From: the human T2T-CHM13v2.0 reference genome, Homo sapiens
NCBI GenBank assembly: GCA_009914755.4
Contig: CP086569.2
Coordinates: forward strand, 224,001 to 288,000
Direction: 5' to 3'
Length of the DNA: 64,000 nt
Shown here: positions 47,395-51,290 of the stretch, in pieces
Layout of the letters: each line of letters opens with the position of its first letter
How positions within the stretch are numbered: position 1 is the first letter of the stretch
The notes under the pieces: generated by a model
Told to the model about the DNA's origin: nothing
Seen by the model: the letters and a program-made list of their open reading frames with translations, nothing else
The model's database searches: none
Position numbers and translations under genes: made by a program

Positions 47395-50300
47395 GGACTC
47401 TCTGTCTTGGGGCCACCCTGGGTGCTGCAGGGTACTAAGTCTCTTGATGAGGCCGTCCTGGGCTCTGTAGGGTGTTGAGTCTGAGTCTCTGTGATGAGGC
47501 CGTCCTGGGTACTGTAGGGTGCTGAGTCTCTGTGGTGAGGCCGTCCTGGGCACTGTAGGGTGTTGAGTCTGAGTCTCTGTGATGAGGCCGTCCTGGGCCC
47601 TGTAGGGTGCTGAGTCTCTGTGATGAGGCCGTCCTGCACACTGTAGGGTGTTGAGTCTGAGTCTCTGTGATGAGGCCGTCCTGGGCCCTGTAGGGTGCTG
47701 AGTCTCTGTGATGAGGCCGTCCTGCACACTGTAGGGTGTTGAGTCTGAGTCTCTGTGATGAGGCCGTCCTGGGCCCTGTAGGGTGTTAAGTCTCTGTGAT
47801 GAGGCCGTCCTGGGCACTGTAGGGTGTTGAGTCTGAGTCTCTGTGATGAGGCCATCCTGGGTACTGTAGGGTGCTGAGTCTCTGTGATGAGGCCGTCCTG
47901 GGCACTGTAGGGTGTTGAGTCTGAGTCTCTGTGATGAGGCCGTCCTGGGCCCTGTAGGGTGTTGAGTCTCTGTGATGAGGCCGTCCTGGACACTGTAGGG
48001 TGCTGAGTCTGAGTCTCTGTGATGAGGCCGTCCTGGGTACTGTAGGGTGCTGAGTCTCTGTGATGAGGCCGTCCTGGGCACTGTAGGGTGTTGAGTCTGA
48101 GTCTCTGTGATGAGGCCGTCCTGGACACCGTAGGGTGTTGAGTCTCTGTGATGAGGCCGTCCTGGGAGCTGTAGGGTGTTGAGTCTGAGTCTCTGTGATG
48201 AGGCCGTCCTGGGAGCTGTAGGGTGCTGAGTCTGAGTCTCTGTGATGAGGCCGTCCTGGGCCCTGTAGGGTGTTAAGTCTCTGTGATGAGGCCGTCCTGG
48301 GAGCTATAGGGTGTTGAGTCTGAGTCTCTGTGATGAGGCCGTCCTGGGAGCTGTAGGGTGTTGAGTCTGAGTCTCTGTGATGAGGCCGTCCTGGGAGCTG
48401 TAGGGTGCTGAGTCTGAGTCTCTGTGATGAGGCCGTCCTGGGCCCTGTAGGGTGTTAAGTCTCTGTGATGAGGCCGTCCTGGGAGCTATAGGGTGTTGAG
48501 TCTGAGTCTCTGTGATGAGGCCGTCCTGGACACCATAGGGTGATGAGTCTCTGTGATGAGGCCGTCCTGGGAGCTGTAGGGTGTTGACTCTGTGGTGGGG
48601 CCGTCCTGGGCGCTGTAGGGTGCTGAGTCTCTGTGATGAGGCCGTCCTGGGAGCTGTAGGGTGTTGACTCTGTGGTGGGGCCGTCCTGGGCGCTGTAGGG
48701 TGCTGAGTCTCTGTGATGAGGCCGTCCTGGGCGCAGTAGGGTGTTGAGTCTCTGTGATGAGGCCGTCCTGGGAGCTGTAGGGTGTTGACTCTGTGGTGGG
48801 GCCGTCCTGGGCGCTGTAGGGTGCTGAGTCTCTGTGATGAGGCCGTCCTGGGCGCTGTAGGGTGTTGAGTCTCTGTGATGAGGCCGTCCTGGGAGCTGTA
48901 GGGTGTTGACTCTGTGGTGGGGCCGTCCTGGGCGCTGTAGGGTGCTGAGTCTCTGTGATGAGGCCGTCCTGGGAGCTGTAGGGTGTTGACTCTGTGGTGG
49001 GGCCGTCCTGGGCGCTGTAGGGTGCTGAGTCTCTGTGATGAGGCCGTCCTGGGCACTGTAGGGTGTTGAGTCTCTGTGATGAGGCCGTCCTGGGAGCTGT
49101 AGGGTGTTGACTCTGTGGTGGGGCCGTCCTGGGCGCTGTAGGGTGCTGAGTCTCTGTGATGAGGCCGTCCTGGGAGCTGTAGGGTGTTGACTCTGTGGTG
49201 GGGCCGTCCTGGGCGCTGTAGGGTGCTGAGTCTCTGTGATGAGGCCGTCCTGGGAGCTGTAGGGTGTTGACTCTGTGGTGGGGCTGTCCTGGGCGCTGTA
49301 GGGTGCTGAGTCTCTGTGATGAGGCCGTCCTGGGAGCTGTAGGGTGTTGACTCTGTGGTGGGGCCGTCCTGGGCGCTGTAGGGTGCTGAGTCTCTGTGAT
49401 GAGGCCGTCCTGGGAGCTGTAGGGTGTTGACTCTGTGGTGGGGCCGTCCTGGGCGCTGTAGGGTGCTGAGTCTCTGTGATGAGGCCGTCCTGGGCGCTGT
49501 AGGGTGTTGAGTCTCTGTGATGAGGCCGTCCTGGGAGCTGTAGGGTGTTGACTCTGTGGTGGGGCCGTCCTGGGCGCTGTAGGGTGCTGAGTCTCTGTGA
49601 TGAGGCCGTCCTGGGAGCTGTAGGGTGTTGACTCTGTGGTGGGGCCATCCTGGACACTGTAGGGTGCTGAGTCTCTGTGATGAGGCCGTCCTGGGCGCTG
49701 TAGGGTGTTGAGTCTCTGTGATGAGGCCGTCCTGGGAGCTGTAGGGTGTTGACTCTGTGGTGGGGCCGTCCTGGGCGCTGTAGGGTGCTGAGTCTCTGTG
49801 ATGAGGCCGTCCTGGGAGCTGTAGGGTGTTGACTCTGTGGTGGGGCCGTCCTGGGCGCTGTAGGGTGCTGAGTCTCTGTGATGAGGCCGTCCTGGGAGCT
49901 GTAGGGTGTTGACTCTGTGGTGGGGCCGTCCTGGGCGCTGTAGGGTGCTGAGTCTCTGTGATGAGGCCGTCCTGGGCACCGTAGGGTGTTGAGTCTCTGT
50001 GATGAGGCCGTCCTGGGAGCTGTAGGGTGTTGAGTCTGAGTCTCTGTGATGAGGCCGTCCTGGACACCGTAGGGTGCTGAGTCTCTGTGATGAGACCGTC
50101 CTGGGCGCTGTAGGGTGTTGAGTCTCTGTGATGAGGCCGTCCTGGGCGCTGTAGGGTGTTGAGTCTCTGTGATGAGGCCGTCCTGCACACTGTAGGGTGC
50201 TGAGTCTGAGTCTCTGTGATGAGGCCGTCCTGGGCGCTGTAGGGTGTTGAGTCTCTGTGATGAGGCCGTCCTGCACACTGTAGGGTGCTGAGTCTCTGTG

Positions 50301-51290
50301 ATGAGGCCGTCCTGGGCGCTGTAGGGTGTTGAGTCTCTGTGATGAGGCCGTCCTGCACACTGTAGGGTGTTGAGTCTCTGTGATGAGGCCGTCCTGGGCG
50401 CTGTAGGGTGTTGAGTCTCTGTGATGAGGCCGTCCTGCACACTGTAGGGTGCTGAGTCTCTGTGATGAGGCCGTCCTGGGCGCCGTAGGGTGCTGAGTCT
50501 CTGTGATGAGGCCGTCCTGGGAGCTGTAGGGTGTTGAGTCTGAGTCTCTGTGATGAGGCCGTCCTGGACACCGTAGGGTGCTGAGTCTCTGTGATGAGAC
50601 CGTCCTGGGCGCTGTAGGGTGTTGAGTCTCTGTGATGAGGCCGTCCTGGGCGCTGTAGGGTGTTGAGTCTCTGTGATGAGGCCGTCCTGCACACTGTAGG
50701 GTGCTGAGTCTGAGTCTCTGTGATGAGGCCGTCCTGGGCGCTGTAGGGTGTTGAGTCTCTGTGATGAGGCCGTCCTGGGTGCTGTAGGGTGTTGACTCTG
50801 TGGTGGGGCCATCCTGGGCGCTGTAGGGTGTTGAGTCTCTGTGATGAGGCCGTCCTGGGCGCTGTAGGGTGTTGAGTCTCTGTGATGAGGCCGTCCTGCA
50901 CACTGTAGGGTGCTGAGTCTGAGTCTCTGTGATGAGGCCGTCCTGGGCACTGTAGGGTGTTGAGTCTCTGTGATGAGGCCGTCCTGGGAGCTGTAGGGTG
51001 TTGACTCTGTGGTGGGGCCATCCTGGGCTCTGTAGGGTGTTGAGTCTCTGTGATGAGGCCGTCCTGGGTGCTGTAGGGTGTTGACTCTGTGATGAGGCCG
51101 TCCTGGGCGCTGTAGGGTGTTGAGTCTCTGTGATGAGGCCGTCCTGGGAGCTGTAGGGTGTTGACTCTGTGGTGGGGCCGTCCTGGGCGCTGTAGGGTGT
51201 TGAGTCTCTGTGATGAGACCGTCCTGGGAGCTGTAGGGTGTTGACTCTGTGGTGGGGCCGTCCTGGGCGCTGTAGGGTGCTGAGGAGCGT
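47395..51290. repeat. Large minisatellite/VNTR: 39-47-bp units (gtgatgaggccgtcctggg.(g/a)ctgtagggtg(c/t)tga(g/c)tct(gagtct)ct), ~95 copies, in 80-88-bp (sometimes ~121-bp) higher-order repeats; ~3.9 kb
   Basis: Read directly. Left part (47.4-48.5 kb) alternates 41-bp and 47-bp units (the 47-bp unit has an extra gagtct). Central part (48.55-49.95 kb) alternates gtgatgaggccgtcctgggagctgtagggtgttgactct (39) with gtggtggggccgtcctgggcgctgtagggtgctgagtctct (41). ORFs of 999, 1001 and 974 aa lie in three frames of one strand, so these are repeat artefacts. Confidence 0.95.

What the first reader, a model, noticed from the sequence alone, without database searches (positions are those of the whole stretch)
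47395..51290. ~3.9-kb minisatellite with 39/41/47-bp units organised into 80-88-bp higher-order repeats
This is the largest array in the window, with about 95 units. Distinct domains are visible. From 47.4 to 48.5 kb, 41-mers alternate with 47-mers that carry an extra GAGTCT. From 48.55 to 49.95 kb there is a strict 39+41 dimer with almost no substitutions. From 50.0 to 51.3 kb the units are mixed with ggcactgt/gcacactgt variants. The near-perfect homogeneity of the central domain implies recent expansion or strong concerted evolution. Arrays like this, when GC-rich and subtelomeric, are classic germline-unstable minisatellites and could also act as a transcribed repeat.
Basis: seen in the sequence. 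Interest (0 to 1): 0.6.

Follow-up and report, generated by a model that had tools for sequence, protein, structure and literature searches.

The report
Transposon-seeded minisatellite in primate PAR1
The 3.9-kb array is a real, non-coding 41-bp minisatellite that grew from one short piece of an ancient DNA-transposon fossil, in the highly recombining pseudoautosomal region upstream of PPP2R3B; it is an ordinary member of a well-known class and nothing shows it has a function.

Summary
TRF finds one array at 47399-51284 (period 41, 93 copies; period 80, 91% matches). My parse gives 93 units: 52 of 41 bp, 20 of 39 bp, 19 of 47 bp. There are three domains: an 88-bp (47+41) repeat, a very homogeneous 80-bp (39+41) repeat, and a mixed 41-bp domain. 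The central domain is not strictly dimeric: 5 of its 15 repeats are 121-bp trimers.

The new result is the origin. The array lies inside one copy of an ancient ~217-bp hAT-type MITE. The two halves of that element flank the array (nhmmer E=7.9e-8 and 2.7e-27). The unit matches one internal ~42-bp segment, which occurs once in each of 21 other copies.

An exon-1 ORF at the window start places the locus upstream of PPP2R3B, in PAR1. The MITE copy shows a strong AT-to-GC substitution bias (32:10 against 239:404, p=8.5e-7), as expected in a recombination-rich region.

The array has no PRDM9 13-mer, no CTCF core and no canonical G4. Only 8 units come within one mismatch of the Jeffreys core. It has no hairpin potential or coding signal.

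Verdict: a neutral, transposon-seeded VNTR expanded by unequal exchange or gene conversion. Length polymorphism, instability and transcription could not be tested. Low interest.

The parts
47399..51284 (+). The minisatellite array: 93 units of 41/39/47 bp. Consensus on the G-rich strand: TCTCTGTGATGAGGCCGTCCTGGGCGCTGTAGGGTG[C/T]TGAG.
   Evidence: TRF; unit parse; unit alignment and variable positions
47399..48545 (+). Domain 1: 47+41 = 88-bp higher-order repeat, the most diverged domain (0.041 substitutions per bp). Contains a 4-unit, 182-bp block duplication.
   Evidence: Lag 88 identity 82.5%; 209-bp exact run at lag 182
48546..49963 (+). Domain 2: 39+41 = 80-bp repeat x10 interspersed with five 121-bp trimers. 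Near-identical copies: 15/15 39-mers identical, 0.0078 substitutions per bp. The only part with long-loop G4-like motifs.
   Evidence: 260-bp exact run at lag 642
49964..51284 (+). Domain 3: mostly 41-mers with scattered 47- and 39-mers. Contains a 504-bp (12-unit) block duplication.
   Evidence: 284-bp exact run at lag 504
47350..47398 (+). 5' end of the host MITE (terminal CAG..TTTCTCAGC), directly abutting the first unit.
   Evidence: nhmmer with a profile of 21 independent copies: 47353-47433, model 44-126, E=7.9e-8; alignment
51285..51412 (+). 3' half of the same MITE, ending in GGCTGAGAACCACACTG, directly abutting the last unit.
   Evidence: nhmmer 51246-51424, model 92-272, E=2.7e-27; alignment
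46549..46633 (+). Truncated paralogue of the MITE 5' end plus one unit-equivalent. It ends at about the same model position (128) as the amplified segment (model 90-132). Probably a local duplicate of the main copy.
   Evidence: nhmmer E=9.4e-8, model 41-128; 12 shared derived states with the main copy against a control mean of 1.8 and maximum of 6-7
46695..47265 (+). AT-rich GATA-like 46/92-bp tandem array lying between the two MITE 5' copies. It makes the locus a composite of two unrelated arrays.
   Evidence: TRF; sequence

Best explanation
The array is a non-coding, transposon-seeded minisatellite (VNTR) in pseudoautosomal region 1, about 46 kb upstream of the PPP2R3B promoter. Its size needs no function to explain it.

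Proposed history:
1. An ancient ~217-bp hAT-type MITE inserted here (shown).
2. The copy then accumulated a strong excess of AT-to-GC substitutions. I read this as GC-biased gene conversion in a recombination-rich region. It raised GC from about 52% in the family consensus to about 61% (substitution bias shown; cause inferred).
3. A ~42-bp internal segment (profile positions 90-132) became tandemly duplicated (shown). The initiating event is unknown. An imperfect short direct repeat, CTGGAGGA / CTGAGGA, brackets the segment but does not reproduce the junction exactly.
4. The array grew to 93 units by out-of-register exchange or gene conversion between copies, often several units at a time. The junction picked up a +6 bp (GAGTCT) variant and a -2 bp variant. 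Propagation of these variants produced the 88-bp and 80/121-bp higher-order repeats (variants and block duplications shown; mechanism inferred from established minisatellite biology).
5. The central 80-bp domain is the most recent expansion. The edge units are the oldest (inferred from divergence).

Any effect on chromatin, recombination or neighbouring genes would be a by-product and remains unshown.
For: Array and domains.

Transposon origin:
- Joining the 5' flank, one unit and the 3' flank gives an element colinear end to end with the family consensus.
- A profile of 21 copies recovered from host-contaminated metagenome contigs hits both flanks of the array at E=7.9e-8 and 2.7e-27.
- Every weak per-unit hit falls on the same model segment, 90-132.
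- The 21 copies each carry that segment once.
- 10 of 18 complete copies have 8-bp target-site duplications of the nTnTAGAn type (at least 5 of 8 bases matching), the hAT hallmark.

GC bias: 32 W>S against 10 S>W in the window copy, against 239:404 in the other copies. Fisher p=8.5e-7.

Block-wise growth: exact duplicated runs of 284 bp at lag 504, 260 bp at lag 642 and 209 bp at lag 182.

Non-coding: unit lengths of 41, 47 and 39 bp shift the reading frame. Length variants differ by 2 and 6 bp. The only Pfam hits are summed 20-residue matches to DUF4949, with no single stretch significant.

Locus:
- The exon-1 ORF at 242-1444(-) matches proteins that include one named PP2A B'' subunit beta.
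- Its marmot homologue sits beside an EF-hand_13 gene piece.
- PPP2R3B lies in PAR1 on the minus strand (PMC5838017, PMC9575207).

Context:
- Non-Alu tandem arrays fill 17.5% of the window, and about 25% of PAR1 is TRF repeats (PMC9575207, Additional file 4).
- 23% of human minisatellites and satellites derive from TEs (PMC3389668).
Against: - Neutrality is a default, not a demonstration. No expression, methylation, ChIP or population data could be consulted.
- The 41-bp array is larger and its centre more homogeneous than the other arrays in the window. Selection or a locally active process could also produce that.
- The initiating duplication is not explained, because the flanking short direct repeat does not reproduce the observed junction.
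- The species and the exact coordinates are inferred. The databases held no 100% match to the exon-1 ORF (best 69% identity).
- The Repbase/Dfam name of the MITE could not be verified.
Confidence: 0.8

Rival explanations
1. The array is a cis-acting meiotic element. Like the mouse mo-2 minisatellite, it and the neighbouring PAR1 arrays would recruit the REC114/MEI4/MEI1/IHO1/ANKRD31 pre-DSB machinery, or shape the axis-loop structure, to secure the obligatory X-Y crossover.
For: - It lies in PAR1, inside the 0.25-1.25 Mb zone where most PAR1 recombination occurs (PMC9575207).
- In mouse, mo-2 arrays are cis determinants of RMMAI aggregation (10.1101/536136; review PMC11039559).
- Bergman and Schierup suggest that human PAR1 repeats may help assure recombination (PMC9575207, Additional file 4).
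- The window is unusually dense in arrays (17.5%).
Against: - There is no sequence similarity to mo-2 (tcactcacagtcatccccctgcctcagaaaa, quoted in PMC13050634).
- mo-2 arrays are far larger: over 500 tandem repeats each (PMC13050634).
- This unit appears to be single-locus in what I could search.
- Nothing in the sequence distinguishes it from a neutral VNTR.
- Human PAR1 DSBs are PRDM9-positioned (PMC4102438), and the array lacks the PRDM9 motif.
Confidence: 0.05
2. The array is a PRDM9-motif cluster acting as a recombination hotspot, like the minisatellite-like PRDM9 peaks reported in PAR1.
For: Hinch et al. found that many PAR1 PRDM9 binding peaks are minisatellite-like tandem repeats carrying multiple motif copies (PMC4102438).
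Against: - The 13-mer CCNCCNTNNCCNC has 0 matches in the array at 0 or 1 mismatch, against 3.3 per kb elsewhere in the window. At 2 mismatches the array is below background, at 17.2 against 23.0 per kb.
- Only the A-type 13-mer was tested. Other PRDM9 alleles and the extended motif were not.
Confidence: 0.03
3. The array is a regulatory or structural VNTR. Its copy number would modulate chromatin, methylation or expression of PPP2R3B or SHOX, or it would be transcribed as a repeat-containing lncRNA.
For: - PAR tandem repeats each show characteristic histone and CTCF patterns (PMC3089472).
- The array is 46 kb upstream of the PPP2R3B promoter.
- It carries 124 CpGs and strong strand asymmetry.
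Against: - No CTCF core at 2 mismatches or fewer.
- CpG observed/expected is 0.39, below the window background of 0.55, so it is not a CpG island.
- No Rfam family in the window.
- No single-strand structure: z-scores are +0.9 to +1.7.
- No paper links a VNTR here to a trait.
Confidence: 0.07
4. The ~1000-codon open reading frames on the minus strand encode a repetitive protein.
For: All three minus-strand frames are open across the array, with ORFs of 974-1001 aa. One exceeds the Pfam DUF4949 cutoff when its repeated matches are summed.
Against: - The unit simply contains no stop triplet on that strand. My estimate of the chance of that for a random 41-mer is (61/64)^41, about 0.14.
- Units of 41 and 47 bp rotate the frame at every unit, and the length variants differ by 2 and 6 bp, so no frame is maintained.
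- No Pfam stretch is significant on its own.
- The ATG of the longest ORF lies inside the transposon fossil.
Confidence: 0.01
5. The array, or its length, is an assembly artefact.
For: Long homogeneous VNTRs are error-prone to assemble, and the T2T authors note sequencing gaps in PAR1 (10.1101/2022.12.01.518724).
Against: - The array is bracketed by the two colinear halves of one transposon copy.
- It has diverged edge units and an ordered, non-random map of 36 unit variants.
- These are features of in-situ evolution, not of a mis-join.
- The exact copy number in the homogeneous domain 2 could still be wrong.
Confidence: 0.03

Closest known systems
TE-derived minisatellites (Ahmed & Liang 2012, PMC3389668; Alu-derived minisatellites of Jurka & Gentles as cited there)
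   Same: The tandem array arises by local duplication of part of an interspersed repeat and then expands in situ. The host element's remaining parts flank the array. The class accounts for 23% of human minisatellites and satellites.
   Different: The seed here is an old DNA-transposon MITE, whereas that study finds tandem repeats arise more often from younger, more active TEs. With 93 units and three higher-order domains, this array is at the large, complex end.
Classical pseudoautosomal hypervariable minisatellites (DXYS14, DXYS15, DXYS17, DXYS20/DXYZ2); from my own knowledge of the literature
   Same: GC-rich tandem arrays with units of tens of bp in distal Xp/Yp PAR1, a region where about 25% of sequence is tandem repeats (PMC9575207).
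   Different: The unit sequence and length differ: 41 bp against the 61-bp array shown near the p-arm telomere in PMC3089472. I could not link this array to any named DXYS locus. Its polymorphism is untested.
Hypermutable GC-rich minisatellites MS32 (D1S8), CEB1 (D2S90), MS1 (D1S7), B6.7
   Same: GC-rich, strand-asymmetric, subtelomeric arrays of interspersed unit variants. Such arrays mutate by meiotic gene conversion and unequal exchange (cited in PMC4102438 and PMC3389668).
   Different: No canonical G4 motif, unlike CEB1. The Jeffreys core is absent from most units. The homogeneous, presumably youngest block is central rather than at one end, so no polarity is visible. The germline mutation rate is unknown.
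Mouse PAR mo-2 minisatellite (Acquaviva et al. 2020; 10.1101/536136)
   Same: A minisatellite with a unit of a few tens of bp, located in a pseudoautosomal region.
   Different: No sequence similarity. This array has 93 units, against arrays of more than 500 repeats, several of them mo-2 (PMC13050634). mo-2 also occurs at autosomal ends. No evidence of protein recruitment here.
Higher-order repeat organisation as in alpha satellite
   Same: Variant monomers are propagated together as 2-3-unit (80, 88, 121 bp) and larger (182, 504, 642 bp) blocks.
   Different: The scale is a few kb rather than megabases. The location is not centromeric. The higher-order blocks are irregular.

Membership tests
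Minisatellite / VNTR | Head-to-tail tandem array with a unit of about 10-100 bp | tested here: met
   TRF period 41, 93 copies; unit parse 39/41/47 bp
Minisatellite / VNTR | Copy number varies among individuals or haplotypes | not testable with these tools
   No human or primate assemblies are searchable. The unit is absent from viral and prokaryote-genome collections and from papers.
TE-derived tandem repeat | The unit is homologous to part of an interspersed repeat, and the rest of that element flanks the array colinearly | tested here: met
   nhmmer profile of 21 independent copies: 5' flank E=7.9e-8, 3' flank plus last unit E=2.7e-27, all unit hits on model 90-132; alignments
hAT-superfamily non-autonomous element (MITE), the host element | 8-bp target-site duplication (nTnTAGAn type) and short terminal inverted repeats (CAG..TTCTCAAC / GTTGAGAA..CTG) | tested here: met
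   Family level: 10 of 18 complete copies have at least 5 of 8 matching flanks, e.g. GGCTAGAG/GACTAGAG and CTCTAGAG/TTCTAGAT. The consensus termini are inverted repeats. For the window copy itself the TSD is degraded (4 of 8 at best) and inconclusive. The Repbase name (MER20/MER58-like from memory) is not verified.
Jeffreys-type 'core' minisatellites | Unit contains the core GGGCAGGANG | tested here: not met
   0 exact matches in the array. Only 8 variant units match at 1 mismatch (GTGCAGGACG). Most units need 2 mismatches.
G-quadruplex-forming minisatellites (CEB1-like) | Four or more G3+ runs with short loops within the repeat | tested here: not met
   No motif with loops of 12 nt or less. 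There are 18 non-overlapping motifs with loops up to 16 nt, in domains 2 and 3 only, the domains that contain 39-mers.
PRDM9-motif tandem arrays of PAR1 (Hinch et al. 2014) | Multiple copies of the PRDM9 13-mer CCNCCNTNNCCNC | tested here: not met
   0 matches at 0 or 1 mismatch in the array, against 14 exact matches in the window and 3.3 per kb at 1 mismatch or fewer outside it
PRDM9-motif tandem arrays of PAR1 (Hinch et al. 2014) | PRDM9 binding or a DSB peak | not testable with these tools
   No ChIP or SSDS data available here
mo-2-like PAR meiotic minisatellite | Sequence related to mo-2 | tested here: not met
   By eye, the unit shows no resemblance to the mo-2 unit quoted in PMC13050634.
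mo-2-like PAR meiotic minisatellite | Recruits REC114/MEI4/ANKRD31 aggregates in spermatocytes | not testable with these tools
   Requires cytology or ChIP
PAR1 (Xp22.33/Yp11.3) locus | Physical linkage to a PAR1 gene | tested here: met
   The ORF at 242-1444(-) is exon 1 of a PP2A B''-beta (PPP2R3B) type gene. Its marmot homologue is adjacent to an EF-hand_13 gene piece. The assignment of PPP2R3B to PAR1 comes from PMC5838017 and PMC9575207. Human origin of the window is inferred, not shown.

The most novel reading that the evidence does not exclude
This array, together with the other large arrays that fill about 17% of this window, could be part of a human counterpart of the mouse mo-2 system. 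In that reading, sequence-unrelated PAR1 minisatellites act collectively as cis platforms that concentrate the pre-DSB machinery or remodel the axis, so that the X and Y always cross over. Array length polymorphism would then influence X-Y non-disjunction risk.
Probability: 0.05. Interest if true: 0.7.

Novelty: new member of a known kind. Interest (0 to 1): 0.2.

Why it matters
As it stands, the finding matters little. It is one more TE-derived VNTR in a region where about a quarter of the sequence is tandem repeats.

It is still a clean worked example of minisatellite birth. The host transposon halves are intact. The amplified segment is mapped to within a few bp. A GC-biased substitution signature is visible. 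Three successive higher-order repeat generations can be read in one array.

If long-read population data showed extreme length variation or paternal instability, the array would be a convenient marker for PAR1 recombination and mutation. It would also become a candidate in the open question of whether human PAR1 repeats help secure the obligatory X-Y crossover.

Tried and rejected
1. Literature search for the unit sequence and for signature strings of the MITE: no hits, so neither could be given a published name.
2. Searches for PPP2R3B with VNTR or tandem repeat, and for DXYS locus names: nothing ties a named minisatellite to this position.
3. Scan for the unit in viral contigs and in 185,579 prokaryote genomes: no matches.
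4. Scan for the MITE signature in viral contigs: only two chance matches inside phage genes.
5. Rfam over the whole window: no family.
6. PDB sequence search with the exon-1 peptide: nothing.
7. Coding hypothesis: rejected on frame rotation and on Pfam repeat-sum artefacts.
8. Hairpin or slippage-prone single-strand structure: rejected, since both strands fold no better than shuffles.
9. PRDM9 13-mer, CTCF core, chi-like octamer and Jeffreys core: absent or marginal.
10. CpG island: rejected, with observed/expected 0.39.
11. Short direct repeats as the seed of the first duplication: CTGGAGGA before the first unit and CTGAGGA at the last junction are suggestive, but they do not reproduce the unit-unit junction. 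Left as inconclusive.
12. Target-site duplication of the window's own MITE copy: too degraded to call.
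Full report
**Observation**

Tandem Repeats Finder reports a single array at window 47399-51284. At period 41 it has 93.0 copies, 85% matches and score 5052. At period 80 it has 46.5 copies, 91% matches and score 5164. It is the largest array in the window.

I cut the array at a conserved anchor (GGCCGTCCTG and variants). This gives 93 units: 52 of 41 bp, 20 of 39 bp, 19 of 47 bp, one of 40 bp and a partial last unit. They fall into 36 distinct sequence variants.

A unit alignment locates the length differences at the unit junction. 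The 47-mers have an extra GAGTCT. The 39-mers lack 2 bp and read GTGGTGG instead of GTGATGA. Substitutions concentrate at positions 11-14 (GGCG and its many variants) and at position 25 (T/C).

**Domains**

- Domain 1 (47399-48545) alternates 47- and 41-mers. Its best self-similarity lag is 88 bp, at 82.5% identity.
- Domain 2 (48546-49963) peaks at 80 bp (86.8%), with further peaks at 201 and 642 bp.
- Domain 3 (49964-51284) peaks at 41 bp (71%).

Substitutions per bp against the length-class consensus are 0.041, 0.0078 and 0.033 for domains 1, 2 and 3. All 15 39-mers of domain 2 are identical, and 13 of the 15 41-mers that follow them are identical.

Domain 2 is not strictly dimeric. Ten 80-bp dimers are interspersed with five 121-bp trimers (39+41+41).

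Exact duplicated runs show that growth often involved several units at once. They are 284 bp at lag 504, 260 bp at lag 642 and 209 bp at lag 182.

**Where the window lies**

The window is full of Alu elements. It begins with a GC-rich first kilobase (GC 0.69).

A minus-strand ORF at 242-1444 contains the peptide MPPGKVLQPVLKMKVDELFLYWLSEASTQRMLQDCLRRIK... I recognised this from memory as exon 1 of human PPP2R3B, and tested that as follows.

- A database search returned only mammalian and fish relatives (best 69% identity). One of them is named by its source as PP2A regulatory subunit B'' beta.
- The marmot homologue lies immediately upstream of a gene piece carrying Pfam EF-hand_13, the PPP2R3-family domain.
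- Papers place PPP2R3B in PAR1 on the minus strand at about 0.33-0.35 Mb. They also state that most PAR1 recombination falls between 0.25 and 1.25 Mb (PMC5838017; PMC9575207).

The array therefore lies about 46 kb upstream of the PPP2R3B promoter, on the SHOX side, in distal PAR1. Two caveats apply. No 100% match to the ORF exists in the searchable databases, and the human origin of the window is inferred.

**Origin of the repeat**

The flanks of the array looked to me like the two halves of an old DNA-transposon MITE. That was a lead from memory, and I tested it in four steps.

1. Joining the 5' flank, one unit and the 3' flank gives a ~210-bp sequence that aligns end to end with the recalled consensus.
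2. A degenerate signature taken from the 3' flank retrieved 23 metagenome contigs. These are low-coverage contigs, at least one from a human oral metagenome, so host contamination is the likely source. Twenty-one of them are clear family members.
3. Their consensus is a 217-bp element, CAGGGTTTCTCAACC...GGTTGAGAACCACTG. Ten of 18 complete copies keep 8-bp target-site duplications of the nTnTAGAn type (at least 5 of 8 bases matching), the hAT hallmark.
4. An nhmmer profile of those 21 copies was searched against the window.
   - It hits 51246-51424 at E=2.7e-27 (model 92-272: last unit plus the 3' half).
   - It hits 47353-47433 at E=7.9e-8 (model 44-126: the 5' end plus the first unit).
   - All weak per-unit hits fall on the same model segment, 90-132.

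In the 21 other copies that segment occurs once. The minisatellite is therefore an in-situ amplification of a ~42-bp internal piece of one MITE copy.

The 39-mer variant (GTGGTGGGGCC) and the first, most diverged unit (GTCTTGGGGCC) are closer to the ancestral GTTGTGGGGGGCT than the common GTGATGAGGCC. This fits old edge units and derived core units.

I could not verify the Repbase/Dfam name of the family. From memory it is MER20- or MER58-like, of the hAT-Charlie group.

**Substitution regime**

Against the family consensus, the window copy has 32 AT-to-GC and 10 GC-to-AT changes. The 21 other copies together have 239 and 404. Fisher's test gives p=8.5e-7. GC rose from 0.516 in the consensus to 0.607.

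This is the expected footprint of GC-biased gene conversion in a region of very high recombination. It is independent support for the PAR1 setting. It also means the GC-richness of the unit is partly a product of its location.

**A second, truncated copy**

A further copy covers the MITE 5' end plus one unit-equivalent (46549-46633, E=9.4e-8, model 41-128). It lies about 800 bp upstream and is separated from the main copy by an AT-rich 46/92-bp array (46695-47265).

It shares 12 derived states with the main copy over 88 positions. Control pairs among the 21 copies share 1.8 on average, with a maximum of 6-7. It is therefore probably a local paralogue. I did not resolve how this arrangement arose.

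**Tests of functional readings**

- *PRDM9.* The 13-mer CCNCCNTNNCCNC occurs 14 times in the window (4.6 expected by chance). It never occurs in the array, even with one mismatch.
- *Other motifs.* The CTCF core is absent at 2 mismatches or fewer. The Jeffreys core occurs only in the 8 GCACAC-variant units, at one mismatch. A chi-like octamer is absent at 0 or 1 mismatch.
- *G-quadruplex.* No motif has loops of 12 nt or less. Eighteen long-loop motifs (loops up to 16 nt) exist, in domains 2 and 3 only, the domains that contain 39-mers.
- *CpG.* Observed/expected is 0.39, against 0.55 for the rest of the window, so it is not a CpG island. Several unit variants are CpG transitions, which is consistent with germline methylation. 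That last point is inference.
- *Single-strand structure.* Neither strand folds better than shuffled controls.
- *RNA families.* Rfam finds nothing in the window.
- *Coding.* The three ~1000-codon minus-strand ORFs exist only because the unit lacks stop triplets on that strand. Units of 41 and 47 bp rotate the frame. Pfam gives only summed 20-residue matches to DUF4949, with no stretch significant on its own.

**Interpretation**

The best-supported account is a neutral, transposon-seeded VNTR. It expanded and was partly homogenised by out-of-register exchange or gene conversion in PAR1.

This class is well known. At least 23% of human minisatellites and satellites derive from TEs (PMC3389668). 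Almost 25% of PAR1 is tandem repeats (PMC9575207 Additional file 4), and 17.5% of this window is non-Alu arrays. PAR tandem repeats have been reported to carry array-specific chromatin marks (PMC3089472). Some PAR1 PRDM9 peaks are minisatellite-like (PMC4102438), but this array lacks the motif.

The most interesting reading still open is a mo-2-like role in securing the X-Y crossover. I give it about 5%, because nothing in the sequence points to it.

**What could not be tested**

Length polymorphism, germline instability, methylation and transcription could not be examined with these tools. They are what would decide whether the array is of more than routine interest.

Noticed in passing
window 242-1444 (-), with GC 0.69 in window 1-1000: The ORF contains what appears to be exon 1 of PPP2R3B (MPPGKVLQPVLKMKVDELFLYWLSEAS...), set in a GC-rich first kilobase that is probably the promoter CpG island. 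This anchors the window in PAR1. No 100% match exists in the protein database (best 69%).
   Followed up: partly
window 46549-46633: A truncated second copy of the MITE 5' end plus one unit-equivalent. It shares 12 derived substitutions with the copy that hosts the array, so it is probably a local duplicate. It ends at about the same model position as the amplified segment. How this arrangement arose is unexplained.
   Followed up: partly
window 46695-47265: An AT-rich GATA-like tandem array (46/92/184-bp periods, 70-84% matches) sits between the two MITE 5' copies, about 130 bp from the GC-rich array. The composition contrast is sharp.
   Followed up: no
window 20477-22799: A 26-bp x 88 array (TTCTCCCGAGTAGCTGGTGACGCCGT, 93% matches) with 79- and 105-bp higher-order periods. 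From memory, the unit contains the Alu motif CTCCCGAGTAGCTGGG, so this would be a second TE-derived minisatellite in the window.
   Followed up: no
window 39450-40296 and 42275-43116: Two further GC-rich arrays: 65 bp x 13 at 97% identity, and 20 bp x 42 (GACAGGACGGACGCCCCAGA) at 91%. An AT/CA-rich 174-bp repeat (41217-42047) lies between them.
   Followed up: no
window 40439-40782 vs 44314-44652: A 344-bp direct duplication at 93% identity brackets the 174-bp and 20-bp arrays. It suggests a larger local duplication or a repeat-mediated rearrangement.
   Followed up: partly
window 54707-55296 and 57586-58632: Degenerate purine-rich (AGAC/AGAG)n and CA-rich (ACACACAT...)n arrays with 230-bp higher-order structure. 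In total, 17.5% of the window is non-Alu tandem arrays.
   Followed up: no
window 48304-51460 (-): Translations of the array reach or approach the Pfam DUF4949 cutoff (up to 38.4 bits against 31.1) purely by summing many 20-residue repeat matches, with no stretch individually significant. This shows how VNTR ORFs can produce spurious domain calls.
   Followed up: yes
L012 and L018 (metagenome contigs): Two contigs from different metagenome assemblies carry what looks like the same MITE locus, with identical sequence across the aligned region. This is consistent with host-DNA contamination recurring across samples, so the 21 copies represent about 20 independent loci.
   Followed up: no
window 52581-53321 (+): From memory, this 246-aa ORF resembles the C-terminal part of LINE-1 ORF2 (…IPFDPAIPLLGIYPKD…TIAKTWNQPKCP…). 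It lies just downstream of the array and an Alu with a long poly-T at 51504-51538.
   Followed up: no
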